64,000 bases of DNA from positions 1 through 64,000 of the IMG/VR virus record IMGVR_UViG_2667527573_000005. The stretch is one strand, 5' to 3'. This stretch comes from an uncultured virus (IMG/VR IMGVR_UViG_2667527573_000005). Lineage: Duplodnaviria > Heunggongvirae > Uroviricota > Caudoviricetes. The notes below the pieces were generated by a model. That model did no database searches, had not been told where the DNA came from, and saw only the letters and a program-made list of their open reading frames with translations. The position numbers and the translations under genes are program-made. How positions within the stretch are numbered: the first letter of the stretch is position 1; the number at the start of each line of letters is the position of its first letter. Positions 5,931-58,930 of this stretch are shown one piece after another.

Positions 5931-6092
5931 ACTTTTTAATATTCCTTATAGTCTGTATCTTCTCCCTTATTGTGTATTTCATTCAAAATCCTCAATAGCT
6001 TACCTTCAAGTGTTTCCTTATGTAAATTGAATAAGGTTTCCACTTGTTCTCCACTAATTTTATTTTTATTCTCAATAAAAGACCGATTTTAT

Positions 6093-6248
6093 TTAGAATT
6101 CTCTGTTCTTGAAAATGTCACGATAAGTAAGTCCAGAAATCCCACGATCCTTTTTCGTTTGTTCATTGGCTTCTTTCCAATCATTTTCAGTTAAATTGGA
6201 AAACTTATTTTTAGATAACTTAGGTTTCTTGACTGCTTTAAGTTTAAT
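6093..6248 (-). CDS. 51-aa hypothetical protein with ATT start
   Basis: AGGGGG RBS, 8 nt, ATT AAA CTT...; open frame filling the intergenic gap; no in-frame ATG/GTG/TTG near the RBS. Confidence 0.5.
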   Translation of the reverse strand: MKLKAVKKPKLSKNKFSNLTENDWKEANEQTKKDRGISGLTYRDIFKNREF

Positions 6249-6252
6249 AAAA

Positions 6253-6441
6253 CTAACCCCCTAAAAATTCTGTGATTTTATTTATGTCATCGGTATTCAA
6301 ACAAATCGACACTTTCTTACTGTACTTCTTGTCTTCAATAGTCATTAAAACATGGTCTCTTCCTTTCTCGAAAATAACTTTATCTTCTTTAGGAAAAGTA
6401 CGACATTTAAAAACTTTTTTCATTGAAACAATCCTCCCCAA
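6253..6441 (-). CDS. Hypothetical phage protein
   Basis: ORF with RBS, co-oriented with neighbours. Confidence 0.6.
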
Positions 6442-6584
6442 ATCACTCCTGCAGCTATTAAGACAGAAACAAATTTCATTATTATGAAGTATTTGATATG
6501 CTTTGTTTCATCTTCAGTTAAGTTCAAGTCTGATAAAGCGAATAAACCAAACATGACCAACAAAATCCATGCTGTAACAATCAT

Positions 6585-7133
6585 CTACTTAGAACCTCTT
6601 CCAACTGTATATCCGCCGGTAATGTCATTTAAGATCGTGCTGCTTGGGGACAGCTTTTCACTCTCAATATCTTTATTTTTAGTGTAATTAATGAAATCCT
6701 CGAACTGAATCAAATACACTCCGTAAGCTGTGTTATTCAATTTATCAATGGTATCGTCACTTAGTTTCAAAAACCAGCTGTCAGTACCTTGTCCATACAC
6801 TTCAAAAATTTGAACAATCTCATCCTTAAACTCAAAGTAAGCCAGCTTATTTTCAAATTCACATTCCTCATCAACTGGATTTCCTACATGATTTGTCGCA
6901 TATTCCATCATTGAAGTAAGCATGTAACCTAATTCAACGTCCGAGAAACTTAGCTGTGGTTTAGGTGTTCCATAGTGAATATCTGCTTCATTTAGCGATC
7001 CTCTTTGATTCACTTCTCTAATGATTTCCTTCATAGCCGTACGGCCTTTGTGAATGATGAATTCCCTACGTTCCTCATCTCTTCGTTTATAATTCTCTAA
7101 TACATCATTAATATTAAATTCTGTTTTAGCCAT
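6585..7133 (-). CDS. Hypothetical phage protein
   Basis: 182-aa ORF with GGGGAG RBS. Confidence 0.75.
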   Translation of the reverse strand: MAKTEFNINDVLENYKRRDEERREFIIHKGRTAMKEIIREVNQRGSLNEADIHYGTPKPQLSFSDVELGYMLTSMMEYATNHVGNPVDEECEFENKLAYFEFKDEIVQIFEVYGQGTDSWFLKLSDDTIDKLNNTAYGVYLIQFEDFINYTKNKDIESEKLSPSSTILNDITGGYTVGRGSK

Positions 7134-7560
7134 TAGTACACTCCCCTTTGATTAACTGTTTGCAAATATTAATATATTCTTGCAGACTATTAACTGTTGA
7201 AATAATACACCCCCGAACCTCTTCAGAATCTTCAAAATCTATTTCACATTTAAGGCAATGCTCATCAATCTCAATCATTGCAAGAAATTGATCATTGTTT
7301 GGCACATTTTTAAAGTCAATATTCTTTAATCTTGGAATGCCCTTTTCCTTAATCCATTCAATAAATGGATAATCGACATTGGTTTTTGTTGTAGCGATTT
7401 TTAAAAACCCATGTATATCAAAAGAGTTCTCAATATTGAAATAAATGTGAAGGCTCTTCTTCATGAGATCAAATAATCGCATTAGCGCTTTATCAATGTT
7501 ATTGTCTGGTTTAACTTCAAATTCTAAATCAAACCATGTTGCAGAGTTTGCGTTATTCAT
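7126..7560 (-). CDS. Hypothetical phage protein
   Basis: 144-aa ORF with GGAGG RBS, coupled to neighbours. Confidence 0.75.
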   Translation of the reverse strand: MNNANSATWFDLEFEVKPDNNIDKALMRLFDLMKKSLHIYFNIENSFDIHGFLKIATTKTNVDYPFIEWIKEKGIPRLKNIDFKNVPNNDQFLAMIEIDEHCLKCEIDFEDSEEVRGCIISTVNSLQEYINICKQLIKGECTNG

Positions 7561-8332: not shown

Positions 8333-8638
8333 TCAATAATAAAACTCCATTAACGCATCTCTTCCTGCTCTGTTCAATAATTCAATATCGAATATTACAT
8401 CTCTTCCCTTTAATTCGTTGTAATGATAATTAGGGTCTTGCTTTTCATTGTAATGAATGAAGGAGACGTTATGAGAAGTATATACGTCATAACGATTTTT
8501 CAAAATAATCAACATTCCATTTATCTCAATTGCTCCGATTGAAACATTGTTTAACATTGTCCTACTGGGTAAAGAATGACGTAGTACACTTCTAAGTTCT
8601 TCGAATTTTTCACTTCTCTTATAACCATAACTGTTCAT
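8333..8638 (-). CDS. Hypothetical phage protein
   Basis: 101-aa ORF with AAGGAG RBS; flanked by near-consensus palindromic sites at 8317 and 8662. Confidence 0.7.
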   Translation of the reverse strand: MNSYGYKRSEKFEELRSVLRHSLPSRTMLNNVSIGAIEINGMLIILKNRYDVYTSHNVSFIHYNEKQDPNYHYNELKGRDVIFDIELLNRAGRDALMEFYY

Positions 8639-9286: not shown

Positions 9287-9565
9287 CTAGATCATCTCTT
9301 CTCTCAACCATTTATAAATTTTTTCTCTGACCTCTGTGTCATTCCATCCCCATTCTTCTGCTAACAAGTGAATATCTTTCGGCAGGTGTTTATGTATTTT
9401 GACCACAGATGATGGGTCTAGTTTTTTGCCATAATAATCATAATAACAATCGAAAATCTGGTCGTACGCATCTTCGTCTATCCATAAATAATGACAAACA
9501 GCACATCCTGAAATTCCCTTTGGACAAGGTGTCTTAATCCTATACCTGCCATTGATTTTCTCCAT
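9287..9565 (-). CDS. Hypothetical phage protein (Cys cluster)
   Basis: 92-aa ORF, CPKG.SGCAVCH. Confidence 0.7.
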   Translation of the reverse strand: MEKINGRYRIKTPCPKGISGCAVCHYLWIDEDAYDQIFDCYYDYYGKKLDPSSVVKIHKHLPKDIHLLAEEWGWNDTEVREKIYKWLREEMI

Positions 9566-10818
9566 AGCTCACTATCCTTCTCTTTAAAATACAGATTTTA
9601 TATTAATTTAAACGTAATAACTAATTTTTTTTAGTAGGGTTCCGTAATTCATAATTCATAAGAGCTCCCCCTCGCGTGAGTATTTTCGATAACACCCTTC
9701 GCAGTAAACGTATTTAGGTATTTCGCTTCTCGGAAACCTCTCTTTACTTCCGCAGTAAGGGCATTCGACGACCTCAGTTTCGCGCAAATATAATCCGAGG
9801 TTATTCCACTTGTTTACGTCAATCATTACGTAACCACCTCTCAGCCGTTTTAATCGCGATCTCTGCGTGCTCAAGCGTTAAAGGTTCCGTTCTCTCATCC
9901 GTCAGAAATACCGCATTACCGACCCTTCCGCGCTCTTTATACCACATCATTACGATATAGCCGCCAAACCCTTCGTCAGGCGCATAATTATCGCTTAAAG
10001 GTACGTATCCTATTGATCCGCAATCCCTCCTCGTTTTTGTTTGCGTCAAAACCACGTATTATCTACGCCTTCATTGCGCTAGGCTCTTTGCTCGTCGATC
10101 ATCAGTTTTAAGTTCTTCGCCTCCATGCCGCGATTGTTCGTTACGTAAGGAATTCCGTAAGTTTCTTTGTGCTTGGCGTGCAGGTAGCCGATAAAATCGC
10201 GCGTATTCCACTTGGCGACCGGCTTTGATTCATACGTTGTCATCTTCGTCACTTCCTTCGTACTTATATTCACGTAGTACATCCGTTAAGGAAATAGAAC
10301 CCATCGAACCACTTCCGATGAATCTTCGTAATTGTTCTTTTCGGTCGGCTTTCAGAGGAGCGTAACACGCGGATTTTAATTCCGCCTCAAGCTCCGCAAT
10401 GTGATCGAGTAGCGCCGGAATGTCTTGGCGTGCGTTTGCGATGAAGTCTGCGTATACATCTCCGCTAGTCATACAAACCAAATGAACTTCACAAGATCCC
10501 GGTGGATATTCGTAGGACACGTCTGTTCTATCCGAAACAAACCACCGCGCATCTCCAACCGCTTCCGCGCGCTTACGGATTTCTTCGAGCTGTTCCTTAT
10601 TCAACCGATTCATACTTAACGCCAACCTTTCGTTTTATTTTCGTAAGATTTCCGCCCTTTACCGCAAATTTATAACGTCCGTGTCCGTGAACCTTAACGA
10701 AGTAATATCTGCTGTTTAAGAAACGCCACGACCTTGAATCTACACTTTGCGATTAACTCGGACGCCTCTTTATACGACGTTCCAATCAACCGGACAACGG
10801 CGCGATCCAGGCGGAGCA

Positions 10819-11160
10819 TCAAGCGTTCACTCCTTCGATTTTGATTCCGAGACGTTCCAGCGTTATTTTAATAACACGCTGATATTCTTCGAAACGAAAG
10901 TGAGTTTCGGAGTGAGAAGTTCCGAATCCTGTATTAAAACTCTCGTAGAACTCCCGCACCTTTTCCTCCGGCGTCTTTTTGACTTCGTATCCGTTGACCA
11001 ATGCGGCCGCTAGCGTCATGATGTCGAGTTCATTTAGACACGAAAACTCTTCGATCCATCGATCCTTTGCGTGAATTCGTAGTAAGTCGGATTTCTCCTT
11101 GTCGCCATCCATAAATATCTGAATAGCCCCCGCCTGTTCCTTCGTGATTGTCGGCTTCAT
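10819..11160 (-). CDS. DUF1642-like phage protein
   Basis: MKPTITKEQA...LAAALVNGYEV motif typical of this phage family. Confidence 0.55.
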   Translation of the reverse strand: MKPTITKEQAGAIQIFMDGDKEKSDLLRIHAKDRWIEEFSCLNELDIMTLAAALVNGYEVKKTPEEKVREFYESFNTGFGTSHSETHFRFEEYQRVIKITLERLGIKIEGVNA

Positions 11161-11335
11161 TTTAGCGCCTCCTTTGCGTGTAAATTAATTTCGTATAGCG
11201 CAGTAACCGGAACCAAATCGACGCTTTCTTCGGGTAACTGCGACTTTATTTCGATCACCCTCAACGCCGCCGTCAACCGCTCATTCTCGCCAATCAAATC
11301 CGCCACAGCACAACGCAATCGTTTAACTTCTTCGG

Positions 11336-11938
11336 TCATCGCTTGCCCTCCTCTAAACTTTCGTTATAGTCACAGATAGCCGCACCACAAAACGCCTCTG
11401 CCGTCTTTTTCAACGCGATAAGTTCCTCCGCAGTCAAATACTTAATAACGATTGCTTCTCCGAAATCTTCTCTAAATACGCCATCATCGTCTCGCCCAAG
11501 TAGCGCTCTTCCAATCGTCAACGTATACTCCGACCACTTTTTCGGAGATTCTTCGTCTTCTTGCTTTACCGAGTAGTCGTACCGTTCAATTTTGTAATAG
11601 TATTCGTTATCCATTCCGAAGGCATCTTCGAGAACAAGTTGCGCATAGTCTACGTTGCGTACAAACCCACCATCCTCGGTTCGTTCCAGCGCGTATCCTT
11701 TCGTCATATCGAACGTTAGAATATGTTCGAGGAAAGCCGGCAAGCTTGGAACCTTCGGAAAGTCGTGTGTGCTCGCTGAGAATATCGTTTTCTTTCCGTG
11801 TAAAATTGTAATGTCGTAGTAAAAATAAATTACATCCCGCATACTTTCGATTTTCTCATCGTCATCACCAAACGTGGTTATTATCGGGTTACCGTATGAA
11901 ATCAACAGGTCACCTTTCCGCCAAGTTCTACGTGTCAA
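11336..11938 (-). CDS. Hypothetical phage protein
   Basis: 200-aa ORF with GGAGG RBS. Confidence 0.7.
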   Translation of the reverse strand: MTRRTWRKGDLLISYGNPIITTFGDDDEKIESMRDVIYFYYDITILHGKKTIFSASTHDFPKVPSLPAFLEHILTFDMTKGYALERTEDGGFVRNVDYAQLVLEDAFGMDNEYYYKIERYDYSVKQEDEESPKKWSEYTLTIGRALLGRDDDGVFREDFGEAIVIKYLTAEELIALKKTAEAFCGAAICDYNESLEEGKR

Positions 11939-12166
11939 TTTAACGCCTCCACTCCGTGTATTTTCGCGTTTTATCGTCTACCCTACCGAATACCCTCGAC
12001 CGTCAGTAACGCCGCTAATTCGCCGCGATACGCACGTTTATTCGTGCTAATTCCGCCAGCGATTGCGCATCCGAAGACCTCAACCGCCGATTGCGTTCGT
12101 CTGACGTGAGTTAATCGTCGGGTGATACCGGAATGTTAATCGTCATGGTTATCGTTACTCCTTTCG

Positions 12167-14974: not shown

Positions 14975-15357
14975 TTATCCACTCTCCTATTTTATTATTA
15001 AACTTCATTTTCACCTTGAAAGTTAAAGAAACTACTTGTCTATCAGTTTATAAATTTCCTTCTCTACCACCTTGAAAGTTGGATACCCTAAAAAACTCCC
15101 CATTTTAAATAAAATATTAGTTTTATAGTAATTTTATTTTTATTCTAAATATATAAAAGAACAAGCTGATTAACTTGTCTCTATCTTATCACCTGTTCAT
15201 TATGTATGTCTATAGTTATTTTATTTTTATTCTTTATTTATTGGTTTTGCTTTATTAGCCTTTTGTTCCGTAAGCAAGCCGGAGGCAATATTTCACCAAT
15301 TTCATAATTCATCTTACCCTATAGGTTTCACTTTTAATGCACAATAAAGAGGCAGCA

Positions 15358-17431: not shown

Positions 17432-17540
17432 CTCTTTCCTCCTTATCGATTTTAGATAAAAGTATTCTTTTATTCGGAAATATTTCCAACAAAAATCTTT
17501 TATGGTAAATTAAAAGCAATGTATTTAAAGGAGTGTTAAT

Positions 17541-19215: not shown

Positions 19216-19257
19216 TTATTAGCTCCTTTTGATTTAAGTTTGTTTAAAATTACCCTT

Positions 19258-19500
19258 TTATCGTAATTCGTTTAGTAACTCATCAAGTTCATTAGGCTTA
19301 AAACCAACACTTCGGTTTACTTCTTCTCCTTGATCATTCAGCAAAATGGTTACCGGTACTCCCATAACACCAAATCTAGCTGCCACTTCTGGTTCCTGTG
19401 TAACGTCAACTGTCTCAAATTGAATATTTGCTTGCTCTAAGTAATTGGACACCATTTTACATGGGTTGCAATTAGGCTGCTCTAATTTAATTAATCTCAT
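19258..19500 (-). CDS. yosR: Thioredoxin/NrdH-like redoxin
   Basis: CNPC active site, GVPV; 80 aa from ATG at 19500. Confidence 0.92.
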
Positions 19501-27338: not shown

Positions 27339-27365
27339 TGGTTATTCCTCCTTTTCTCTTTAAAA

Positions 27366-27701
27366 TCATCCTTTTAAAGTAATGAATAAAATCCCAGTTC
27401 GCTGACTGCCCCGCCATTTAACTGCCAAGTCTCCTGCCATGTTGAAATGAATTTTATTAATGTCCACCTTTAACACCTTTGTTTCGCCCTCATAACTTGT
27501 CAATTTCATTTTAAGTGGACTTTTTATCCCCTCATTCAAATCAAACACCTTATATGCTGTTGAATTCTTACCAGTGTTTATAGTAATCCTGTCCTCATCC
27601 TCAACAGCTTCAATGTTCTGGTAGTGAAGAACAATTTTCGTTTCCTTCGGTAAATAATTATTAAATTTTTCTTTATAAACAGAGATTTCCTTTAAAATCA
27701 T
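27366..27701 (-). CDS. Hypothetical phage protein
   Basis: 111 aa; sole gene between palindromic sites 27361 and 27730. Confidence 0.7.
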   Translation of the reverse strand: MILKEISVYKEKFNNYLPKETKIVLHYQNIEAVEDEDRITINTGKNSTAYKVFDLNEGIKSPLKMKLTSYEGETKVLKVDINKIHFNMAGDLAVKWRGSQRTGILFITLKG

Positions 27702-27754
27702 ATCTGCCTCTCCTTTTGCAAAATTGGTTTAAAATAAAACTTTTATTTAGATCT

Positions 27755-28510: not shown

Positions 28511-28642
28511 TATCTTCCCTCATTGATGATCTTCTTTAATGCTTTTAGAAGCATATTTAGTGATTTCTTGTCACCCATTTCATCCCGACTTAATTTATCC
28601 TGCATTTCAGTTGCTCCTTTCACGATAAAAATTGAATTTTAT

Positions 28643-28819: not shown

Positions 28820-29137
28820 TGTGCCACTCCTTATTATTTGTTTTGATTTGTCACATACTGCGCTTACCCGGGAAATTATGAATATTTTCTTCTGACTATT
28901 TCCTCTTTTATAAGTCCACCAACAGCAACCCGTCTAACCCATACACTCTATCTCTTTCAGTTAACTTTCCGTTTTTTCTATTGTCTTCAATGCATTTTCT
29001 GCTTGTTTTCGATTTGAGTAAATATGTGGGTGGTAACCATAGAGATATTTCCCTTCACTCTTTGCAGCAATTACGAACATGTTCATTGCTCATCTCTCCA
29101 TTCTGGATAAAAGGAATATTTTATAGTAATTTTATTT

Positions 29138-30439: not shown

Positions 30440-30560
30440 ACATCAACACTCCCACCAACATTATTTTTATTCTAAATAAAATTGATCTTTTATATAGATC
30501 CCAATGTTCTTGTCCCGCTTCTTAGTATTAAGTATCATTAAATTAAGGTAGGGTGAGACA

Positions 30561-31977: not shown

Positions 31978-32691
31978 CTAATTAATAATTGAAACCGTTC
32001 CATGTTGTCTTCCGAAGTTAATTGCATCCTGTTCATTTGATACCAGCAAGTCCACTTTATTGCCAACAATCGCTCCACCTGTATCAATGGCTATGGCCTT
32101 AAATGAGCTCCCTCCTACTTTTATTAATACTACGGAGTTAAGTGGAATAATACTTGGATCTGTAGCTATTACTCTATAACCTTTGTAAAAAATTGATTGT
32201 GTTACATCTACGCCAGTTTTGGTTCGACCGGTGCAGCCTTCGGTACAGTTAGCAACATATGCACTAAATTCGATATCTAGTGTCTTAGCTTCATCATTTT
32301 CCACATATGTAATTTTATTTTTATTCTTTATTTGTTTATTCTTGTTTTTACCCTCACCTCCCTTCTTGATACTTTTCTTTTTCACTGGTTTGGGTTTAAT
32401 AATAGCTGCGTTAAGAATATCATCTCGCCGCTTTTCTTGTTTAGCTTTCTGTTTCTTAGAAACTTCATCGAACTTATTTAGCACCTGATTCTTGTGTTGT
32501 GGTAAGTTGATTTGTTTTGGTTTTCCATAAAATGATTCTTTTATTGAGTTATGATTGTTTCCTGTGTCTAAATGATGTTGTTCAAAATTTATGTATGAAA
32601 AGGTTGCCAGTGGGATTAAAATTATCATAGCACATTTAGTTTTTATTGTATATAATTTAATTTTATTTTTATTCTTTATTTCTTTATAGAT
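31978..32691 (-). CDS. yorM: 3D-domain (cell-wall lytic transglycosylase-like) exported protein; likely ATC start at 32691
   Basis: FSAY...TKTG, IATDPSIIPL, AIDTGGAIVGNKVDL; AGGAGG RBS lies 7 nt before ATC, none before ATG 32628. Confidence 0.85.
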   Translation of the reverse strand: MYKEIKNKNKIKLYTIKTKCAMIILIPLATFSYINFEQHHLDTGNNHNSIKESFYGKPKQINLPQHKNQVLNKFDEVSKKQKAKQEKRRDDILNAAIIKPKPVKKKSIKKGGEGKNKNKQIKNKNKITYVENDEAKTLDIEFSAYVANCTEGCTGRTKTGVDVTQSIFYKGYRVIATDPSIIPLNSVVLIKVGGSSFKAIAIDTGGAIVGNKVDLLVSNEQDAINFGRQHGTVSIIN

Positions 32692-41558: not shown

Positions 41559-42530
41559 TTATTCAGATAGAAGGTCTTTTAGATCATCTAGAATTACAGA
41601 CATTACACCTACTTGCTTACGGCTGCACTCAGTAACTTTTACACCCTTACCTAAATGTTTTTCTGTAATCTCATTAACTTCTTCTAAACGACCTTCTTCA
41701 TTAAGCTTCATGCCAATTTCTTTAATTTGATCCATTAATGAGTTGAAATCAAGTTCTTCTGAAGCGTTGTTTTGTTTTTGCTCTTCGTATGTAACAGCAA
41801 CAATTCCTTCTGCTTGCTCCTGTCTCTCGACTGCTTCAATAATTGCTTTTTCTAAGTTTTCTGCAGTAAATTCAGGTAAGTATGTGTCAATGTAATCAAA
41901 TCGGCTACGAGCAAAATGCTCTTCAGTTTCAGCTAACCAAGCACTTGATTTGATTACTTTTCTATCTTCATCAACACCATTAGAACTTAGATAGAGAACA
42001 ATATCACTGTTATCAATTACTGGAGCTAAAACTCGTTTATCCCCCTTAGGATATACTTTACCTTTTTTGTCTTCAGCAGCATGAGCAATAAAGATAACAG
42101 TAAATCCTACACCAATTAATTTATTGATTTCTTCCCATACTTCAGTTTCATACTCTTTCCAAAGGCCAAACCCATCATTACCATCTTTAATCCGTTCTAC
42201 ATCATATTGCTCACATACGTATCTAGTTGCATATTTAGCAAAAGCGTCTACTTCATCAACAATGATTGTCTGATACATTTCTTTGGCCTTTTCAGCATTT
42301 TTAGTTAACTGTTTGTTTACCTTTTTAAAATCAGCCCAACTATTGATAGGCATGAATTGTACGCCTGCGATTGCATTTAATCCTTTTTCGAATGGCAGAT
42401 ACAAAGGTTTCTTCATCCGAGTGCTTTGCTTAGTTTTACCTAAGTTGTTAGAACCGTAGATTGTGATAACTTTTCCTTCTAATCCTTTTGCTACTACAGA
42501 AACTTGAGGGTTGAAAATATCGATTGCCAT
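41559..42530 (-). CDS. yorG: AAA/Sak4-like ATPase
   Basis: YGSNNLGKT, IIVDE, FIAH. Confidence 0.88.
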   Translation of the reverse strand: MAIDIFNPQVSVVAKGLEGKVITIYGSNNLGKTKQSTRMKKPLYLPFEKGLNAIAGVQFMPINSWADFKKVNKQLTKNAEKAKEMYQTIIVDEVDAFAKYATRYVCEQYDVERIKDGNDGFGLWKEYETEVWEEINKLIGVGFTVIFIAHAAEDKKGKVYPKGDKRVLAPVIDNSDIVLYLSSNGVDEDRKVIKSSAWLAETEEHFARSRFDYIDTYLPEFTAENLEKAIIEAVERQEQAEGIVAVTYEEQKQNNASEELDFNSLMDQIKEIGMKLNEEGRLEEVNEITEKHLGKGVKVTECSRKQVGVMSVILDDLKDLLSE

Positions 42531-44720: not shown

Positions 44721-44967
44721 TAATTCAATAACATATTACCATGAGGGGAAAAACTTAACAATTCCTTTTGAAATTAAAATAAAATGATGATTTTATTGGG
44801 TTATAGATAAAAGAGCCACCTAGTGGCAGCTCCAGAGTTGATCAGCCTCCGACTCTAACTTCCATATTAGCTCATCCCCCAATAATATTAATCACTTTTT
44901 AACCCCCAAAACCATTTTAATACTCTCCCTTAGGATTAAAGAGAATTATATCATGAATTTATAAAAT

Positions 44968-46285: not shown

Positions 46286-46376
46286 GTCTTCATAACTAAG
46301 TCCCTTTTGTACAAAATAATTTCTTGCTTCTTCTGAAGTCATTTAAACATCTCCCTATCTGGTTAAAATATCGTTT

Positions 46377-46823
46377 TTATTTAGATTCTAAAAGCTCAGG
46401 ATCTTCGTAAATGTTACCTATGACTTCATAATCTTCTTCACAGTAATTTATATCCCCGATCCAGCATATACCTTTCCCGTTTTCTTCCCCTGTATAATCT
46501 GAATAATAACGGCTATTAATGTTCTCTAAAGTAAATGAGCCATCCCGAAATCCGACTGAAGCAGTAAAGTGTTCTTCTATTTCGTTTCCATCAAAGAACC
46601 AGTGAACACAATGAATAATATCCCCCTCGTAAATCTCCCGGCTGTTCTTATCCTTCAAACCGGTATATTGCATTAAAGGCGATACATTTGAAAACTCGTT
46701 TCTGAAATAACAAGCTAACTCCTCTTCGTCATTATTGAGAAGTTCGTCCCAGTCAATCATTCGTGGAAATTCTTGACCATCTCTTTTCTCTGTATGATAA
46801 GCGCGAAACTTGAATTCCCTCAT
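46377..46823 (-). CDS. YopX family protein
   Basis: MREFKFRAY, LMQYTGLKDKN..EIYEGDII, EVIGNIYEDPELL. Confidence 0.9.
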   Translation of the reverse strand: MREFKFRAYHTEKRDGQEFPRMIDWDELLNNDEEELACYFRNEFSNVSPLMQYTGLKDKNSREIYEGDIIHCVHWFFDGNEIEEHFTASVGFRDGSFTLENINSRYYSDYTGEENGKGICWIGDINYCEEDYEVIGNIYEDPELLESK

Positions 46824-47996: not shown

Positions 47997-48060
47997 CAAA
48001 AATCCCCTTTTTAATTTTATTTTCATCCTTATAAAATCTCTGTTTTATCTAGATTTCTGT

Positions 48061-49989: not shown

Positions 49990-50145
49990 CTATTCCATTT
50001 CAATCCACTTATAATACTTTCCTATTTGATAATCAAAGCGCCAACCATCCTCAAGGACTTTCGAATGACTATTCTTATATTTCGAGTGATTTAATAACAC
50101 CCTAGGAGAAAACATTATTCTCTGCCAGTTAAATAATTCTTTCAT
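49990..50145 (-). CDS. 51-aa hypothetical protein
   Basis: MKELFNWQRIMFSPRV...; sole gene between site 50192 and near-site 49952. Confidence 0.5.
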   Translation of the reverse strand: MKELFNWQRIMFSPRVLLNHSKYKNSHSKVLEDGWRFDYQIGKYYKWIEME

Positions 50146-50224
50146 TTTTCATTCCCCATTTCTAATAAATTTAAATTTGATTAAAACTACATAAAATAAA
50201 TATTTTATTTTCACTCTAATTTGA

Positions 50225-51600: not shown

Positions 51601-51639
51601 TTAACTATCCTCCTAAGTTATTAAAATAAAAACTATCTT

Positions 51640-52086
51640 TTATTTGAAATATTGCACAACTCCATCACCCTCAAAGTTAAATGGCTGTGGTGGCGGAGTT
51701 GATCCTAACAAGGCGTATGATTTTTGTCGCATTTGTTTAAATGCCATTGATAAATTTTTCGATTTCATCAATTTTTCAAGTAACTGTTTCCCTATTTGCT
51801 CTAATATTTTCATAGACTCATTTTTAGTTATGTCCATTTTAGGTATTGGTAAGTCCATAACTAATGCACCTGTCGTTATCTCTGAAACCTTTAAGGTATC
51901 ATCTAATGGTGTCACACAAAAACTATATCCACCGACAAATACTTCGTGACCAACTGCCTGCTTCCAATGATTTTTGTAATTTAAGCTGAAACGCTTCAAA
52001 TTAGCATCAACTATAATTTTTTCACATTCCAAATTGAGCATCCTCCAACTTGTGATTATTCGTATATATCTTCTTTGAAATCCCAT
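51640..52086 (-). CDS. Hypothetical phage protein
   Basis: ORF; likely start near 52040 after GGAGG. Confidence 0.7.
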   Translation of the reverse strand: MGFQRRYIRIITSWRMLNLECEKIIVDANLKRFSLNYKNHWKQAVGHEVFVGGYSFCVTPLDDTLKVSEITTGALVMDLPIPKMDITKNESMKILEQIGKQLLEKLMKSKNLSMAFKQMRQKSYALLGSTPPPQPFNFEGDGVVQYFK

Positions 52087-52379
52087 AATGTGGCGTTTGA
52101 TTTATTCTCATTATCATTTTCTTTCATTTCAAACTCTTCAGTATTGAACGAATAATAATTCTTCTTAACCTTGGCTAAGATTACCCTTTCGTCGCCATAA
52201 ATTTCATTTCCATTGATCTGGGTGTCCTCATTTAGATTATCTTTAGTCCGCTCATATGCTAAATTTGCTTCGTCTTCATCATCATAAACCCCAATAAGAC
52301 CAAGCTCATGTTCAAATACCATCCACAATTCATTATTTTTACTCATTTCATTGAGCCTCCTCTTTCTGTTTAAAATCAC
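52056..52379 (-). CDS. Acidic hypothetical phage protein
   Basis: ORF; likely start MSKNN after AGGAGG. Confidence 0.7.
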   Translation of the reverse strand: MILNRKRRLNEMSKNNELWMVFEHELGLIGVYDDEDEANLAYERTKDNLNEDTQINGNEIYGDERVILAKVKKNYYSFNTEEFEMKENDNENKSNATLWDFKEDIYE

Positions 52380-52470
52380 GATTTTAAGTTAATTTTAAAG
52401 CGTATCACATTGAAGAAACCTATTTTCATTGGTAAAATTTTCACAAGTAATATTTAGATGAGGTGACATC

Positions 52471-53447: not shown

Positions 53448-53472
53448 CCCCTTTCTATATAAAACAGTCTTT

Positions 53473-53667
53473 TTATTGAAAATATTTATCTGATGTGCGG
53501 GCCATGTCTTCCCCGCCTAAATAGTTTTTTATTTCATTTAAGCTATAAATGACCTTATCGAATTTATCCCTAATGTGCAGTGCATATTCAACTGATGAAT
53601 CAGACATCCCTAATTCCTTTAGATTTGTGTCTAATTCTTTAAAGTAGCCTTGTAACTTTACGTTCAC
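53473..53667 (-). CDS. Hypothetical phage protein
   Basis: 64 aa; stop codon lies inside the palindromic site at 53460. Confidence 0.6.
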   Translation of the reverse strand: MNVKLQGYFKELDTNLKELGMSDSSVEYALHIRDKFDKVIYSLNEIKNYLGGEDMARTSDKYFQ

Positions 53668-53940: not shown

Positions 53941-53993
53941 TTTCCTCCATTTCCATTTTCCACTCTCTATAAAATTTTACTTTTATCTAGAAT

Positions 53994-56201
53994 TCATTTG
54001 GCTTCCAATACCACAGTTTCTTTTTCAAAATCATTTCTCAATTTGATAATGGAAGTTGATTTTAGATACCCTCTGTCCTTTGTCTTAGCCCATGCAAAAA
54101 ATCTATTATGCAAAGGAGTGTAAAGGCTTCCTGTGTTAACCATATGCTCATGTTTGTTGCTGATCTTATGCTTTACTCCCCTCATTTGTTTCCAAAAGTT
54201 ATAGTAAGGGAGCTTAAGTTTTGTCATGAAGCCAGTAGCATCTTCAATTACATAACCCTCTCCCTCAATTGAAAAATCTTGTGACACGTCCAGATACCAT
54301 CTATAGAAATCTGTCCAGTTACTAAACTCCGCAACTTGTTTTTTGCACTCAATGGATAAACACTCTGCAGTAGCTTTCACTTCACTGTAAGGGAGTTTTT
54401 CATATATCATTTGCCTTTTTACGATGTCTAATAGGACTAGCTTGTCTTTACTGTATTCAATGATATGCGGATCTTTTTTTGGAAGTATTACTTCAAAAAC
54501 GAATGAAACATTATTTAGCTTCAGATAATCTTTAATGATATTTACCTTAAATTCATCAAAGGACTTGAAGAACAGCTCCTCGACCCATTTTGCATGGTCA
54601 TTTGATAATTGAGATGTAAAGGATTTAGAAGTGAATACCAACTGATCTGACAAAGAGTCATACCCTACAGTCCCTAAATATCCATTCGCCTTATCGAAGA
54701 CTGTTACTGGAAACTTCATTGTATCTACGAGATGATGCATCCTTGTTTCAGACCGTTCTCCAATATTAAAAAATTTATCATAGCTTCTACTTACAATTTC
54801 ATTGCTCTGGGTGTTAATAAACAAGCCCCTTGCCTTAATATTTGTTTCATCCCACTTTTTCTTTCTAAAGGCTTGCTTTGTAAAATTAAATGATGAGATA
54901 TTGTTTGGCATCTTGTTCTCTTGGACATATTCATGATCACGTAAGTGGGAAACCAAATCATCAATTGTTCCAACAGTTACACTATTACTCTGCACATCAC
55001 TTGAACTTTGTTTAAAAACTTTATTCTTCACTTCATGCGTTTCAATTCCGTTCTCAGACAGTGTAACGACTCTAAGATGACCTCCTCTTTCCACTTGCCC
55101 TTCCAGGTTATAAGATCTTTCTGCTGCTAACACAGGTAAACGGTACATGTTTCTATGTCCATGAATCTGTACAACATTTTGGCCAGCCGTATTTTTTGCA
55201 AATTCATAATCAATATCGTCTGAATAATCTCCAACTCCATTGATGAATTGTGTTGTTGCGGTCATCAAGAGATTTTCAGGTACGGTTGAAACTCCTCCAT
55301 GAGTTACAATGTATGTAGTGTTTTTATATGTAAAGTAAGCTAACTGATGAAACTTCCTGGCCAACTGTCTAATGTCTTTTTTATCAATGTTGGATTGTTC
55401 GATTTCTGGTTTAGTTTTGTTGTTAAATGTGCTGCTAGGTGTTTCTTCATCATTCCCATACATATTGATATATCTATCGTGATTTCCTTCCAGAATAATC
55501 ACATTTTTATTATCTTTAATTTTGATCATGAATTCTAATAGCTGTGCATTTTCAATACCTCTGTCGATAAGATCTCCTACAAAGATGTATAGTTCATTTT
55601 CATTTAAATCACCGTTTAAGTACTCTTGAAGCACAGTATTACACCCATGAACATCTCCGAAAATATGAATCTTTTTATAATCGTCAAAACATCTCGGCTT
55701 ATAAGTCATCGTGTTGTCAAACTCATCTGGTTTTAGAACAGTTACCCAAGATGGCACTTTTTCTGTTGTCATTCTTTCATAAATATTTATAATACTGCTT
55801 TCAGGAACATGTTTATGTTCAGCCCTCATTTTATTTCTTTTTAAGATTCTCCGAACATCAACATCAGAAAAATCAACTACATATACACGGTATCTATATT
55901 TTTGAGCTAGTGGCTTATATCTTGAAATCATGCTTTGCTTTGAATGAGTTGCATCGATAATTGTGAATTCACCGCGATCCATCCTATCTTCAAGCAACTT
56001 TAGTAATAAATCCCACACCTTGTTGTCGTGTTTTGGAGAGATTTCATATTTTCCACTTTTGTTTAACACAGGTGACTGAAACAGCAGTCTAATGTTGTCT
56101 GCAGAAAGAGTGTATTGCTCAAGTCCATTTTCCTTAATCCAAGTTGATTTCCCCACTCCTGGGCACCCTCTTAATAACACTAATGTTCTCATTTCCATCA
56201 A
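53994..56201 (-). CDS. Trifunctional RNA repair enzyme: polynucleotide kinase + metallophosphoesterase + Rnl1-type RNA ligase
   Basis: GCPGVGKS and IIDAT; GDVHG, GDLIDRG, GNHD, THGG, HGH; ARGLF, YDKFFN, KANG, FVFE, EGYV, KLK. Confidence 0.9.
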   Translation of the reverse strand: MMEMRTLVLLRGCPGVGKSTWIKENGLEQYTLSADNIRLLFQSPVLNKSGKYEISPKHDNKVWDLLLKLLEDRMDRGEFTIIDATHSKQSMISRYKPLAQKYRYRVYVVDFSDVDVRRILKRNKMRAEHKHVPESSIINIYERMTTEKVPSWVTVLKPDEFDNTMTYKPRCFDDYKKIHIFGDVHGCNTVLQEYLNGDLNENELYIFVGDLIDRGIENAQLLEFMIKIKDNKNVIILEGNHDRYINMYGNDEETPSSTFNNKTKPEIEQSNIDKKDIRQLARKFHQLAYFTYKNTTYIVTHGGVSTVPENLLMTATTQFINGVGDYSDDIDYEFAKNTAGQNVVQIHGHRNMYRLPVLAAERSYNLEGQVERGGHLRVVTLSENGIETHEVKNKVFKQSSSDVQSNSVTVGTIDDLVSHLRDHEYVQENKMPNNISSFNFTKQAFRKKKWDETNIKARGLFINTQSNEIVSRSYDKFFNIGERSETRMHHLVDTMKFPVTVFDKANGYLGTVGYDSLSDQLVFTSKSFTSQLSNDHAKWVEELFFKSFDEFKVNIIKDYLKLNNVSFVFEVILPKKDPHIIEYSKDKLVLLDIVKRQMIYEKLPYSEVKATAECLSIECKKQVAEFSNWTDFYRWYLDVSQDFSIEGEGYVIEDATGFMTKLKLPYYNFWKQMRGVKHKISNKHEHMVNTGSLYTPLHNRFFAWAKTKDRGYLKSTSIIKLRNDFEKETVVLEAK

Positions 56202-56571: not shown

Positions 56572-57302
56572 TTCGCCCTTTTGAACAGTTTTTTAAACCA
56601 ATTTTCCTTTTCGTTAACTACTGAAAATCCGGGATTATTCATCCTAAACCCATTTGCTATCTTGTCCATGCTGTTTAACTGTATCTTCAATTGCTCAATA
56701 TCTTGGGGTGTATTGATGGTCATTGCAATATTGGATTCTTTTGCTTCCTGTACTTCGGAAATCATCTTATCTAAAGTGAGATCACAATATTCGTCTTCCC
56801 AGTCACCTATGTAATAAAAACGTTCAATCAAAGTACCGCTCGATTCATCTTGAAAAGTGCCAAATAAAATTGGATCTTTATCTCTCCGTTCTTTTTCGAT
56901 CTGCCTTTCAACCTTCCCCGTATAATCTGTAAACACCACATAAAACCGATCCAATTTGTCTTTCACTTTGTTGTATTTAATGATTACCTCATCAGGGATT
57001 TCACGTTCGTAATTTTCAAGCTCAATAATTTTGACTGTATCTTTTGCAATGTTATCTATGTATTCTTCAATGTCGTCCCGATAAACAAACGTATCAATAC
57101 CAAGCTTTACAATCTCCCGTTCTTTTTCAATTGATTCTAAATGGAATATCAGTTTCTTTGCAGCTTTAATTTGATTGGTTTGCTTATATTTATTGAGTAA
57201 TACCAAGCAATTGTCGTAATACCTTTGAAGCTCTTTGTCTGTAACCTTATTTTTCTTTGATTTAATCATGTCGAAATATTGATTTGGTTGTAACATTTCC
57301 AT
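56568..57302 (-). CDS. Hypothetical phage protein
   Basis: 244-aa ORF; KDPILFG, YYIGDW.DEYCDLT look like conserved motifs. Confidence 0.8.
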   Translation of the reverse strand: MEMLQPNQYFDMIKSKKNKVTDKELQRYYDNCLVLLNKYKQTNQIKAAKKLIFHLESIEKEREIVKLGIDTFVYRDDIEEYIDNIAKDTVKIIELENYEREIPDEVIIKYNKVKDKLDRFYVVFTDYTGKVERQIEKERRDKDPILFGTFQDESSGTLIERFYYIGDWEDEYCDLTLDKMISEVQEAKESNIAMTINTPQDIEQLKIQLNSMDKIANGFRMNNPGFSVVNEKENWFKKLFKRAK

Positions 57303-57318
57303 CTTTCCACTCCTTTAC

Positions 57319-57567
57319 TTAATCTAATTCCCTCATGTCTTCTCTCTGCTCAATATAACTTTTAAAGTCCTCCCACTCTCTATCGATCTCTTTAATATTC
57401 CTAGCAATATAGGCTTCTGCAATGGCTGGATCAATCAACTTTTGAAGAGACAGCTGATACATAAATTCAATCTTTGACACTGTTTCTAGAAATGACTGGG
57501 CATAACTTTTTGCTTTATTTAAGCGATATTGACTCATTCCATGTTTTGATTCCATTATTATTCTCAC
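57319..57567 (-). CDS. Hypothetical phage protein
   Basis: ORF with AAGGAG RBS. Confidence 0.7.
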   Translation of the reverse strand: MRIIMESKHGMSQYRLNKAKSYAQSFLETVSKIEFMYQLSLQKLIDPAIAEAYIARNIKEIDREWEDFKSYIEQREDMRELD

Positions 57568-57605
57568 TCCTTTTAATCACATTAAAATGCATCTTTTATT
57601 TTAAA

Positions 57606-58652
57606 TTAACTGTAGAGGTTATATGTAGCTTCATTTATTTTAATTTTCCTGTCATCCATGAATAAGATATATGCATGGTCAAATTTCCCTTTGTTTTTCC
57701 CCCTAGTTAAAAACTTTGGCTCTGATACATTTAAACCATTTTCATCAACATATTCTTTCATCATTCTAAAGGCTTCTTGACTGTACTTTATTTCGGAAAC
57801 AGTTTGACCCCCTTTTTCCGTAAGATTAATACTAATACAATCATCTTGGTAACCAGCAGCACCTTTAGGGGTTTTATAAAACCCAAGGTCTCTTGCTAGA
57901 TTCTCTGCAAATCTAATATGTGGCTTATGAGTTAAAGAGAATACATTAAATTTTCTGGCTATCGATTCTGCAGACATGTCTCCTTCTCTAAGAACTGTGG
58001 TTTTAGAAATTTTGTGGCTAATCTCATCAACTTTGTTGTTTACTTCTTCAATCCTTTTATCATTTAGATATTGGTTTAGTTCAAGTTTACAAGTATTTAA
58101 TTGGTTAATTGCAACTAAATCAGCACTATCAACTTTAAGAACATCTTCATACATCTTAATTTTCATCTTTAAGGTTCTTTCATGAATATCTTCAGTTCTC
58201 ATTATTTCATTTTCAATTCTATCGAACTTCCCTTCTTTACTTAGTTGCGGATTGACTTCTCTTCTCATAAATTTTTTGAACCTGTTCGCATGACCAGAGT
58301 TTGAATAATGCATAACCCCAAAAATTCCTTCTTCTAAGACAATATCTAAAGTAGGTACTCTCCAATATTGCTGTTTTAAAGTCGTTGCCAAATTGGCAAC
58401 GAGTGAAGGTGAGTCGTTGCCTTCCAGGATACTCTTCTTAAAAATTTTCAAGTTATCGTCTGACAAAGATATGTATTCAAAACCTTCCTCAAATTCTTCT
58501 CTTGTTTTGATGTTATGCCATGCTTTTCTTACATCCTTATAACCTTCAAAGGACATTAATTCTGAAGCAAGAGTTGCAACTTTACCGTCTAATTCAAATA
58601 AAAATAAATTCCTGTTCTCATCGATAGAGAAATTAATAATATTTTTTTCCAT
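57606..58652 (-). CDS. Bro-N domain antirepressor-like protein
   Basis: LASEL...GY.D...; EEGIFGVM..S....A.RFKKFM..EV.P.L pattern; coiled coil. Confidence 0.75.
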   Translation of the reverse strand: MEKNIINFSIDENRNLFLFELDGKVATLASELMSFEGYKDVRKAWHNIKTREEFEEGFEYISLSDDNLKIFKKSILEGNDSPSLVANLATTLKQQYWRVPTLDIVLEEGIFGVMHYSNSGHANRFKKFMRREVNPQLSKEGKFDRIENEIMRTEDIHERTLKMKIKMYEDVLKVDSADLVAINQLNTCKLELNQYLNDKRIEEVNNKVDEISHKISKTTVLREGDMSAESIARKFNVFSLTHKPHIRFAENLARDLGFYKTPKGAAGYQDDCISINLTEKGGQTVSEIKYSQEAFRMMKEYVDENGLNVSEPKFLTRGKNKGKFDHAYILFMDDRKIKINEATYNLYS

Positions 58653-58690
58653 ACTTTTTACATCTCTCCTTTTATAAATCTCGATAAAAC

Positions 58691-58930
58691 TTACATTTTA
58701 TTTTGATTCTTAATGATTTCATTCTTTCTCTCTTCATTTGTAAAAACAATATCCTTTAAAATAAACTGTATTTCTTCGAGGTTGTCCTTAACAAAGTCCA
58801 AATCACCAATGGTCTTTCTTATTTCATCCTTATTCAAGTTATGTAAAGCTCTGTTGCATGAAGCAAAAACCTTTAAAAATTTTTTCATGACCATGTTTTT
58901 TATTTCTTTATTCTGCGGATCATTAATCAA
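58691..58930 (-). CDS. Hypothetical phage protein
   Basis: 79 aa; stop codon within the site at 58685. Confidence 0.65.
   Translation of the reverse strand: MINDPQNKEIKNMVMKKFLKVFASCNRALHNLNKDEIRKTIGDLDFVKDNLEEIQFILKDIVFTNEERKNEIIKNQNKM

What the first reader, a model, noticed from the sequence alone, without database searches (positions are those of the whole stretch)
6076..58700. Candidate phage gene-cassette system: recombinase-like TAAAA-N6-TTTTA sites at accessory gene junctions
Seen in sequence: 21 exact copies by manual scan (6076, 9585, 15110, 17457, 19245, 27361, 27730, 28626, 29108, 30477, 32528, 44780, 46364, 48032, 50192, 51627, 52371, 53460, 53970, 57583, 58685) plus near matches (8317, 8662, 49952, 53703). 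Twenty sit at gene boundaries; one (32528) is inside yorM. A simple base-composition estimate predicts about one chance copy. Flanks extend the palindrome to roughly CTnnW-TAAAA-N6-TTTTA-WnnAG, i.e. about 10+6+10 bp. The upstream gene's stop codon often lies within the site (19258, 27366, 46377, 51640, 53473, 58691) and the next RBS follows it. Some units hold a single gene (27366-27701, 8333-8638, 49990-50145, 53473-53667, 57606-58652). I saw no sites in the replication block (32.7-44 kb), nrd operon, sro operon or GC-rich insert. Established: inverted arms around a 6-bp spacer is the XerCD-dif / tyrosine-recombinase geometry, and gene-plus-site units recall integron cassettes and pdif modules. 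Inference: the variable regions of SPbeta-like phages are site-delimited cassettes exchanged by site-specific recombination. I am not aware of this being described.
Basis: partly seen in the sequence, partly recalled or inferred. Interest (0 to 1): 0.93.

Follow-up and report, generated by a model that had tools for sequence, protein, structure and literature searches.

The report
Gene-junction dyads of SPbeta-like phages
A strict 16-base mirror-symmetric DNA site sits between many small genes of this SPbeta-like Bacillus phage and marks the exact points where related phages have swapped neighbouring genes, which makes an old question about how phage genomes become mosaics testable in a model phage.

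Summary
All 21 TAAAA-N6-TTTTA sites are at the stated coordinates, against 1.0 expected; N5 gives 1 and N7 gives 0. The window is the first 64 kb of a phi3T-like provirus. Eleven SPbeta-like genomes carry 29-37 N6 sites each, and 0-7 at any other spacing.

The site is not the known SroF/MrpR operator (SPBRE), which is a different sequence. Its outer positions do not covary and the RNA hairpins are weak. It is therefore read as duplex DNA by a symmetric protein that I could not identify.

Each site keeps its own 6-bp centre across phages. Long homology blocks stop or start within 10 bp of the core at 20 of 33 sites. In 8 of 20 adjacent site pairs, at least one phage holds unrelated DNA between identical cores.

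This is same-slot exchange, not integron-like capture: one site-to-site joint was found among 110 genome comparisons. A Xer-type recombinase, YopP/SroD, with an intact active site is encoded, but nothing links it to the sites.

Earlier notes of this scan reached similar readings on other genomes. I found no paper describing the site.

The parts
6076..6091 (.). junction dyad, centre GACCGA
   Evidence: Stop of a small ORF overlaps it. An SroF-type box at 6055-6072 abuts it with a 3-bp gap. HSPs of 3.57 kb at 97-99% from SPbetaL3, Goe12, Goe13 and SPbetaL5 stop 5-10 bp past the core.
9585..9600 (.). junction dyad, centre TACAGA
   Evidence: Lies 19 nt before the start of gene 9287-9565.
15110..15125 (.). 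junction dyad, centre TATTAG
   Evidence: SroF-type box at 15129-15146, 3 bp away. A phi3T HSP of 3252 bp at 96% starts 6 bp before the core. Only the right flank is homologous in 4 phages, with the same centre.
17457..17472 (.). junction dyad, centre GTATTC
   Evidence: Only the left flank is homologous in Goe11 and SPbetaL3, and only the right flank in 6 other phages, all with the same centre.
19245..19260 (.). junction dyad, centre TTACCC
   Evidence: Holds the stop of the thioredoxin-like gene 19258-19500, and lies 29 nt before the next start.
27361..27376 (.). junction dyad, centre TCATCC
   Evidence: Stop of gene 27366-27701 lies inside it. An SPR HSP of 856 bp at 96% stops 1 bp past the core.
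27730..27745 (.). junction dyad, centre TAAAAC
   Evidence: HSPs of 861-865 bp at 95-99% start 2-6 bp before the core. Between 27361 and 27730 six phages hold unrelated DNA (0% BLAST coverage) between identical cores.
28626..28641 (.). junction dyad, centre ATTGAA
   Evidence: Only the left flank is homologous in SPR, and only the right flank in BUCT083, Goe13 and Goe11, with the same centre.
29108..29123 (.). junction dyad, centre GGAATA
   Evidence: SroF-type box at 29127-29144, 3 bp away.
30477..30492 (.). junction dyad, centre TTGATC
   Evidence: Degenerate SroF-type box at 30456. An SPbetaL3 HSP stops 7 bp past the core.
32528..32543 (.). dyad inside the yorM-like gene
   Evidence: 3D domain protein, 31978-32628.
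44780..44795 (.). junction dyad, centre TGATGA
   Evidence: Goe11, Goe12 and Goe13 HSPs of 1.5 kb at 94% start 8 bp before the core.
46364..46379 (.). junction dyad, centre TATCGT
   Evidence: Holds the stop of the YopX-like gene 46377-46823.
48032..48047 (.). junction dyad, centre TCTCTG, upstream of Gad1
   Evidence: Different partners on the two sides: BUCT083 1226 bp on one, SPBc2 1907 bp on the other.
50192..50207 (.). junction dyad, centre TAAATA
   Evidence: An SPR HSP of 3383 bp stops 3 bp past the core. Goe12 and Goe13 HSPs of 716 bp at 99.3% start at the core.
51627..51642 (.). junction dyad, centre ACTATC
   Evidence: Holds an upstream stop. An SPbetaL3 HSP stops 2 bp past the core.
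52371..52386 (.). junction dyad, centre TCACGA
   Evidence: Lies 24 nt before the start of gene 52056-52346.
53460..53475 (.). junction dyad, centre CAGTCT
   Evidence: Holds the stop of gene 53473-53667.
53970..53985 (.). junction dyad, centre TTTTAC
   Evidence: A Goe11 HSP of 2253 bp at 97.6% starts 6 bp before the core.
57583..57598 (.). junction dyad, centre TGCATC
   Evidence: Between 57583 and 58685 all 8 phages that hold both cores carry unrelated DNA.
58685..58700 (.). junction dyad, centre CTTACA
   Evidence: Stop of gene 58691-58930 lies inside it. A phi3T HSP of 6351 bp at 98.5% starts 8 bp before the core.
62699..63760 (-). YopP/SroD, a Xer-type tyrosine recombinase; candidate actor only, not linked to the sites
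   Evidence: Pfam Phage_integrase plus Phage_int_SAM_1. R173, K202/K205, H263, R266 and H289 are invariant in 7 homologues, and a tyrosine follows at 299. A profile hits XerA 5hxy at 8.5e-12.
60278..61249 (-). MrpR/SroF-type repressor; binds a different motif
   Evidence: Pfam MrpR_N_CB and MrpR_C_cat. The phi3T box is given in the preprint read.
61268..62614 (-). YopQ/SroE, DndB/ParB-like; candidate binder only
   Evidence: Pfam DndB. PHROG 5732.
41559..42530 (-). YorG-like AAA_24 protein; possible strand-annealing enzyme of the phage
   Evidence: Pfam AAA_24. 84-85% identical in distant relatives. The Sak4-type assignment is recalled, not from a call.
2456..3055 (-). Holliday-junction-resolvase-like protein
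   Evidence: PHROG 843, E 1.2e-36. 79-84% identical in distant relatives.

Best explanation
The 21 sites are copies of a junction dyad shared by the whole SPbeta-like phage family.

Anatomy. Each site is duplex DNA with two invariant 5-bp arms (TAAAA/TTTTA) and weaker outer positions, about 11+6+11 bp in all. The 6-bp centre differs from site to site but is kept at the same genomic position in different phages, so it acts as an 'address'.

Who reads it. A symmetric, probably dimeric, protein that I could not identify, and which is conserved across the family.

What it does. The sites are the joints at which related phages have exchanged neighbouring genes. Crossovers fall in the shared 16-bp core between like-addressed sites, so the slot between two dyads can hold alternative, unrelated genes while gene order is kept. 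This is same-slot (allelic) exchange, not capture or excision of cassettes between unlike sites.

Shown: spacing, family-wide presence, phage specificity, lack of pairing covariation, conservation of the centre, and homology blocks ending at the cores.

Inferred: protein binding, and that the crossover is made at the core. The crossover may come from the phage's general recombination enzymes acting on 16-28 bp of identity, or from a dedicated enzyme.
For: - Spacing and enrichment.
- Family-wide presence: 29-37 sites in each of 11 genomes. There are 25-29 sites in three distant proviruses and 21-37 in five further records.
- Phage-specific: a 4.5-Mb Bacillus genome has 72 sites against 40 for the reversed control. 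By my own tally of the partly listed places (28 of the 72 sites are shown), roughly half lie on the contigs that carry the prophage.
- Arms are sequence-specific: single-mismatch variants are near background.
- Outer positions do not covary. Observed pairing is 3.19 against 3.24 for shuffled partners (z -0.4). At flank position 5 the counts are C-G 14, C-A 14, T-A 11, T-G 11.
- RNA hairpins are weak: mean -2.1 kcal/mol, and 9 of 33 do not pair the arms.
- Centres diverge 1.7% between orthologous sites, against 4.6% for inner and 6.9% for outer flanks (148 pairs).
- In 61 of 68 one-flank-homologous junctions the centre is identical. Five sites have left-only partners in some phages and right-only partners in others.
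- A breakpoint lies within 12 bp at 20 of 33 dyads, 2 of 19 SroF boxes and 44 of 163 RBS windows.
- HSPs of 0.2-10.5 kb stop or start within 10 bp of the core at 20 of 33 sites. Five sites have different partners on the two sides.
- In 8 of 20 adjacent site pairs, at least one phage holds unrelated DNA between identical cores.
Against: - No binding protein is identified and no reaction is shown.
- Most mosaic boundaries are elsewhere: 132 of 177 unique unmatched segments have no end at a site, 41 have one and 4 have both.
- Junctions without a site also often carry a breakpoint. The count is 49 of 88 with a gap of 20 or more, against 27 of 32 with a site (p 0.005). When restricted to gaps of 20-120 bp it is 31 of 60 against 14 of 18 (p 0.06).
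- In laboratory phi3Ts x SPbeta hybrids, every parent switch lies in identical blocks of 1.4-18.2 kb, where it cannot be placed. The rest lie in 22-87 bp patches that hold no dyad.
- Selection for intact genes would also place surviving junctions between genes.
- Breakpoint counts come from 10 related genomes and are not independent events.
- Gene calls are my own rough ones.
Confidence: 0.5

Rival explanations
1. The dyads are dif-like core sites for the phage's own Xer-type tyrosine recombinase YopP/SroD. It cuts at the edges of the 6-bp centre and exchanges strands between sites with the same centre in two co-resident phages.
For: - The 11+6+11 layout.
- YopP carries the catalytic R, K, H-x-x-R, H and Y residues and is Xer-like: a profile hits XerA at 8.5e-12, and also XerH and XerD.
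- A need for identical centres would explain why exchange is between like addresses, why centres are conserved, and why unlike sites almost never join.
- Dyads and a YopP-family gene co-occur in 5 of 5 further records tested and in 10 of 10 reference phages.
Against: - YopP is only 31% identical between phi3T-type and SPbeta-type phages, and 30% in distant proviruses. Yet the arms are unchanged and the same addresses are shared.
- YopP is a core gene, so co-occurrence is uninformative.
- By my recollection of the abstract of Brady et al. 2023, which I could not read, SroD is an auxiliary repressor.
- Laboratory hybrids give no switch placed at a dyad.
- No hybrid or circular products were looked for.
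Confidence: 0.15
2. The dyads are operators or roadblock sites for a phage regulator, for example the ParB/DndB-like SroE or SroD. This regulator silences or tunes the small early genes. The coincidence with mosaic joints is a by-product of their position between genes and of their short shared identity.
For: - The site sits just upstream of the RBS, also ahead of first genes after promoters.
- There is a fixed 3-bp abutment to the SroF operator box at 5 window sites, in either order.
- By my recollection of the abstract of Brady et al. 2023, SroE and SroF bind many sites in the phage genome.
- 16-bp palindromes are typical of dimeric regulators and of ParB-type proteins (general knowledge).
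Against: - There is no consistent promoter at the sites.
- MrpR ChAP-seq in SPbeta gave ten peaks, all assigned to the SPBRE motif (paper passages). The SPBRE lies 79-269 bp from the nearest dyads.
- The sro proteins diverge to about 30% identity while the arms are invariant.
- A pure operator does not explain why the free centre is 3-4 times better conserved than its flanks.
- It also does not explain why SroF boxes, equally short repeats, carry few breakpoints: 2 of 19.
Confidence: 0.25
3. The element works in RNA. It would be a small hairpin, or a pair of A/U-rich words, between cistrons. This structure would guide processing, stability or translation of the downstream gene.
For: - Constant placement between the stop codon and the RBS, 19-32 nt before the start codon.
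- The arms are complementary, and 24 of 33 minimum-energy folds pair them.
Against: - Folds are very weak: mean -2.1 kcal/mol, three at 0.0, mean z -0.86.
- Flanks do not covary.
- Compensated arm variants are not favoured over single changes.
- The arms are fixed in sequence, not just in pairing.
- There is no terminator-like context.
- The RNA runs found were assembled contigs with small shares, which cannot show RNA ends.
Confidence: 0.05

Closest known systems
PeSLs (promoter-early stem-loops) of T4-type phages (Arbiol et al. 2010, PMC2839356; abstract and outline read)
   Same: Short conserved intergenic elements, many per genome. They are concentrated among small non-essential genes, and gene insertion, deletion and replacement between related phages occurs at them.
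   Different: PeSLs are sigma-70-type promoters plus terminator stem-loops, and they recombine with one another to give mini-circles. The SPbeta-family dyads show no promoter or terminator. They have site-specific centres, and they joined unlike sites only once in 110 comparisons.
pdif sites and dif modules of Acinetobacter plasmids (Mindlin et al. 2019, PMC6449649; abstract and outline read)
   Same: Multiple sites of about 28 bp with Xer-type geometry (arms around a 6-bp centre) flank accessory genes in variable regions. A Xer-type recombinase is at hand.
   Different: By general knowledge, pdif sites have distinct XerC and XerD arms and use the host's enzymes, and the modules move between replicons. 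Here the arms are identical and the site is phage-specific. Exchange is between the same slot in related phages, and no enzyme is tied to the sites.
SPBRE / SroF (MrpR, YopR) operators of SPbeta and phi3T (PMC10516654, passages read; bioRxiv 10.1101/2025.11.27.690993, sections 3 and 5 read)
   Same: A repeated element of the same phages, scattered in intergenic DNA and bound by a protein with a tyrosine-recombinase fold. It abuts the dyad at 5 window sites.
   Different: The sequence is different and asymmetric, and it is bound by a monomer. In phi3T-type phages it is AGAATAAAAATAAAATTA. In SPBc2 it is a promoter element of the type TAGACAAA..AATATGTATATAAT. Few breakpoints fall at these boxes (2 of 19).
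Integron attC sites and cassettes
   Same: Single genes bounded by imperfect inverted repeats, with a tyrosine recombinase nearby.
   Different: By general knowledge, attC sites act as folded single strands and cassettes move between sites. Here there is no pairing covariation and only one unlike-site joint. The recombinase profile is closest to Xer enzymes, not IntI: XerA 8.5e-12 against IntI4 1.4e-5.

Membership tests
Xer/dif-type recombination site | Two arms of about 11 bp around a 6-8 bp central region | tested here: met
   The 5 inner arm bases are invariant, and outer positions at -6, -5, -4 and -1 are conserved, around a fixed 6-bp centre.
Xer/dif-type recombination site | A cognate Xer-type tyrosine recombinase with catalytic R-K-H-R-H-Y | tested here: inconclusive
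   YopP is Xer-like and keeps the residues. Nothing shows that it is cognate to these sites, and it diverges to 30% identity while the arms do not change.
Xer/dif-type recombination site | Cleavage and strand exchange at the borders of the central region | not testable with these tools
   Needs in vitro cleavage assays or sequencing of junctions from crosses.
Integron (attC cassettes) | Sites fold as single-stranded hairpins whose pairing, not sequence, is conserved | tested here: not met
   Flanks do not covary (z -0.4 to -1.6). The arms are fixed in sequence.
Integron (attC cassettes) | Cassettes excise and insert by recombination between different sites | tested here: not met
   One joint of two unlike sites (SPbetaL5) in 110 ordered genome comparisons.
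SPBRE / SroF-MrpR operator | Matches the operator sequence bound by SroF or MrpR | tested here: not met
   The phi3T box from the crystal structure paper and the SPBc2 promoter element are other sequences. They lie 3 bp to several kb from the dyads.
PeSL regulatory cassette | Strong sigma-70-type promoter | tested here: not met
   Promoter-like matches number 48 and 64 in the two scanned stretches, below the shuffle means of 63 and 78. None is consistently at the dyads.
PeSL regulatory cassette | Stem-loop that terminates transcription | tested here: not met
   None of the terminator-like sites listed lies at a dyad. Mean fold energy is -2.1 kcal/mol.
ComK box (A4-N5-T4; consensus recalled, not from a call) | A-tract and T-tract separated by 5 bp | tested here: not met
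   The N5 form of the motif occurs 0-4 times per genome, against 29-37 for N6.

The most novel reading that the evidence does not exclude
SPbeta-like phages carry a built-in, addressed gene-exchange system. About 30 dif-like dyads per genome each carry a private 6-bp centre that acts as an address. A phage-encoded single Xer-type recombinase (YopP/SroD), or another conserved phage protein that provokes breaks there, swaps whatever lies between like-addressed dyads of two co-resident phages. This shuffles accessory and anti-defence genes while keeping gene order.
Probability: 0.2. Interest if true: 0.9.

Novelty: new variant of a known kind. Interest (0 to 1): 0.68.

Why it matters
How phage genomes become mosaics is an old open question. 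One view holds that short conserved linker sequences between modules guide exchange. The other holds that random illegitimate joins are sieved by selection.

Here a strictly defined site, present about 30 times per genome, coincides with the joints to within a few bases. It occurs in a family that includes the genetically tractable model phages SPbeta and phi3T of Bacillus subtilis. The slots between the sites hold accessory genes, among them an anti-defence gene (Gad1, 47109-47999). The sites may therefore govern how counter-defence genes spread among these phages.

The idea can be tested directly by phage crosses, by edits to the centre or the arms, and by binding assays. If a dedicated enzyme is involved, the address-coded centres would be a new way to keep gene order during exchange.

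Tried and rejected
- Identity with the known SPBRE/MrpR-SroF operator was my first guess. It was rejected by sequence.
- Sigma-A promoter or intrinsic terminator: no consistent match.
- RNA hairpin: no covariation and weak folds.
- Compensatory arm variants: not enriched.
- Host-wide motif: a 4.5-Mb Bacillus genome has background levels outside its prophage contigs.
- Co-variation of the arms with YopP lineage: none. The same arms occur at 99%, 76% and 32% YopP identity, so this neither names nor excludes a binder.
- Laboratory hybrids (phi3Ts x SPbeta, 4 records): parent switches could not be placed at dyads.
- RNA evidence: the 24 runs found are assembled contigs with shares of 0.20 or less, which cannot show RNA ends. 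I did not lay them.
- The distant YopP relative P0007 could not be located in viral or metagenome contigs.
- Papers not held, so not read: Lazarevic et al. 1999 and Brady et al. 2023. What I say of them is recalled. Brady 2023 holds binding data for SroE and SroF that could bear directly on who binds the dyads.
- Searches that found no description of the dyad. Passage searches also found none.

Full report
**Observation**

Dinucleotide-preserving shuffles give a mean of 1.00 and a largest count of 4. N5 gives 1 match and N7 gives 0, both at chance level.

Restricted to 102 intergenic intervals (11,035 bases, 67% A+T), 19 sites are seen against 0.2 after shuffling each interval. None occurs at N4, N5, N7 or N8. 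Allowing one mismatch adds 15 sites, no more than chance.

**Setting**

The window is the first 64 kb of a 127,190-bp provirus record, which has 33 sites in all, 28 of them in the first 73 kb. It is an SPbeta-like phage closest to phi3T. Nearly all its genes are on the minus strand.

By my own rough gene calls, the sites lie 0-17 nt after, or overlapping, the upstream stop codon. They lie mostly 19-32 nt before the next start codon, with the RBS in between.

No site lies in the replication block, the nrd genes, the sro genes or the 46% GC stretch at 10-12 kb. The gene-strand consensus is T[C/T]nAAA-TAAAA-N6-TTTTA-TnnAGA, about 11+6+11 bp.

**Family-wide and phage-specific**

I fetched ten named SPbeta-like genomes. 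Each of the 11 genomes holds 29-37 N6 sites and 0-7 at every other spacing from 0 to 15. Everted or direct arrangements of the arms occur 0-7 times.

The motif is equally enriched around YopP homologues of 99-96%, 77-75% and 33-30% identity. The counts are 43, 143 and 121, with other spacings at most 5, 27 and 11. Three distant proviruses hold 25-29 sites. Five further IMG/VR records hold 21-37.

A 4.5-Mb Bacillus genome with such a prophage has 72 sites against 40 for the reversed control. By my tally of the partly listed places, roughly half lie on the prophage contigs. The motif therefore belongs to the phage, not the host.

**Not the known operator**

My first guess was that this is the SPBRE, the repeated element that MrpR (YopR, SroF) binds (PMC10516654, passages). 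It is not.

The phi3T SroF box given with the crystal structure is a different, asymmetric sequence (bioRxiv 10.1101/2025.11.27.690993, section 5). That box has 19 copies with at most one mismatch in this provirus. In SPBc2 the promoters of yorE, yorZ and yosX share another element overlapping the -35 and -10 regions. Its copies lie 79-269 bp from the nearest dyads at the genes where MrpR peaks were reported.

At five window sites the SroF-type box abuts the dyad with a fixed 3-bp gap, on either side. This hints at neighbouring proteins but proves nothing.

**DNA, not RNA**

Pairing between the eight outer positions on the two sides is no better within a site than between shuffled partners. 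With one site per distinct centre (n = 64) it is 3.19 against 3.24 (z -0.4). With all 238 unique sites z is -1.6. At flank position 5 the counts are C-G 14, C-A 14, T-A 11, T-G 11.

Arm variants, compensated or not, are near background. RNA folds of 32-nt stretches average -2.1 kcal/mol (shuffled -1.05). Three are unfolded, and 9 of 33 do not pair the arms. Promoter-like and terminator-like scans show no excess and no consistent hit at the sites.

Two independently constrained half-sites one helical turn apart point to a symmetric protein on duplex DNA. This is inference.

**Joints of the mosaic**

- BLAST of the provirus against the ten genomes gives 272 unique block ends. Of these, 23 lie within 15 bp of a site centre, against 0.8% for random positions.
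- Against other gene junctions the excess is moderate. A breakpoint is present at 27 of 32 junctions with a site and at 49 of 88 without one (gap of 20 or more), p 0.005. Restricted to gaps of 20-120 bp the counts are 14 of 18 and 31 of 60, p 0.06.
- Against an internal control the contrast is sharper. A breakpoint lies within 12 bp at 20 of 33 dyads, at 2 of 19 SroF boxes, and at 44 of 163 RBS windows without a dyad.
- HSPs of 0.2-10.5 kb at 82-99% identity stop or start within 10 bp of the core at 20 of 33 sites. At five sites (48032, 50192, 68788, 71788, 72698) different phages match on the two sides.

**Addresses**

Across the 11 genomes there are 64 distinct centres. I matched sites by 40-bp flanks alone. 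This gave 47 pairs homologous on both sides, 25 on the left only and 43 on the right only.

In 61 of those 68 one-sided cases the 6-bp centre is identical. Sites 17457, 28626, 50192, 68788 and 72698 have left-only partners in some phages and right-only partners in others, always with the same centre. Between orthologous sites the centre diverges 1.7%, against 4.6% for the inner and 6.9% for the outer flanks (148 non-identical pairs, not independent).

For 8 of 20 adjacent site pairs, at least one phage holds DNA with 0% BLAST coverage between the same two 16-bp cores. Between 27361 and 27730 this is so in six phages. Between 57583 and 58685 it is so in all eight phages that have both cores (this test selects on identical cores).

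So slots bounded by addressed dyads hold alternative genes.

**Limits of the cassette picture**

Only one joint of two unlike sites exists. SPbetaL5 joins the left flank of 68788 to the right flank of 72698. This is the only case in 110 ordered genome comparisons.

Of 177 unique segments of the provirus that lack a homologue in some phage, 132 have no end at a site, 41 have one and 4 have both.

In four laboratory phi3Ts-SPbeta hybrids, parent switches lie in identical blocks of 1.4, 3.3, 4.9 and 18.2 kb, where they cannot be placed. The others lie in 22-87 bp patches that hold no dyad. The 1.4-kb shared block is itself bounded by dyads at both ends. The authors ascribe these hybrids to homologous recombination (bioRxiv 10.1101/2020.05.06.055103, passages).

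**Candidate enzymes**

- YopP/SroD (62699-63760) has Phage_integrase and SAM-like N-terminal domains. It keeps R173, K202/K205, H263, R266 and H289 in 7 homologues, with a tyrosine at 299. Its profile hits XerA, XerH and XerD.
- However, YopP is 31% identical between phi3T-type and SPbeta-type phages that share dyads and addresses. The whole sro trio is 27-34% identical in distant proviruses whose arms are unchanged.
- Better conserved are an AAA_24 protein (84-85%), the DNA polymerase, a 63-aa zinc-ribbon protein (83-89%) and a protein matching a Holliday-junction-resolvase PHROG (79-84%).
- The phage thus has its own general recombination tools, which could work on 16-28 bp of identity. I cannot tell which route is used.

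**Known and new**

The closest described systems are the PeSLs of T4-type phages and the pdif modules of Acinetobacter plasmids. The dyads work like the first, as exchange joints among small genes, and look like the second, with Xer-type geometry. They meet the defining tests of neither.

My searches found no paper describing the dyad (passages). Two papers that might mention it were not held: Lazarevic 1999 and Brady 2023.

Earlier notes of this scan on other genomes reached similar readings. I treat them as leads, not evidence.

**Verdict**

Noticed in passing
window 6055-6072, 15129-15146, 29127-29144, 30456-30473, 48012-48029: The phi3T-type SroF operator box (gene strand AGAATAAAAATAAAATTA) abuts a dyad with a fixed 3-bp gap, on either side of it. 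The provirus has 19 copies of the box with at most one mismatch. Many are followed by cta plus a -35-like TTGACA or TAGACA.
   Followed up: partly
window 62699-63760, and the same gene in SPBc2, SPR, Goe11-13: YopP/SroD comes in two types only 31% identical, among phages that are otherwise about 95% identical over long stretches. The sro genes in the two distant proviruses are about 30% identical as well, which suggests the whole module may be swapped.
   Followed up: partly
window 10001-12000: A stretch of 46% GC in a phage of about 34% GC. Its ORFs have no Pfam match and it holds no dyads.
   Followed up: no
window 47109-47999: A Gad1 (anti-Gabija) gene, E 3.6e-152, lies in a slot that begins at dyad 48032. 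Nearby are NADAR, a polynucleotide-kinase/phosphatase/RNA-ligase fusion (53994-56198), SRAP and an ATP-dependent DNA ligase on the other strand.
   Followed up: no
window 19497-24787: nrdF is split by an HNH endonuclease gene (20081-20602). nrdE carries an intein with a LAGLIDADG domain, as in SPBc2 (annotation).
   Followed up: no
window 2456-3055: A 199-aa protein next to the serine integrase matches PHROG 843, 'Holliday junction resolvase' (E 1.2e-36). It is 79-84% identical in distant relatives.
   Followed up: partly
G000 67854-68045 (outside the window, + strand): A 63-aa protein with two CxxC pairs, of unknown function (PHROG 8829). It is among the best-conserved proteins of the family: 83-89% identical where the sro proteins are about 30%.
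   Followed up: partly
SPBc2 (AF020713.1) 99577, 110897, 116146, 129201: The SPBc2 early promoters share an element of about 29 bp spanning -35 to -10. It fits the genes where MrpR peaks were reported, so it is probably the SPBRE.
   Followed up: partly
Hyb2phi3Ts-SPbeta (MT366947.1) 104631-106034: The 1.4-kb block identical in phi3Ts and SPbeta, in which a laboratory hybrid switched parent, is bounded by dyads at both ends.
   Followed up: partly
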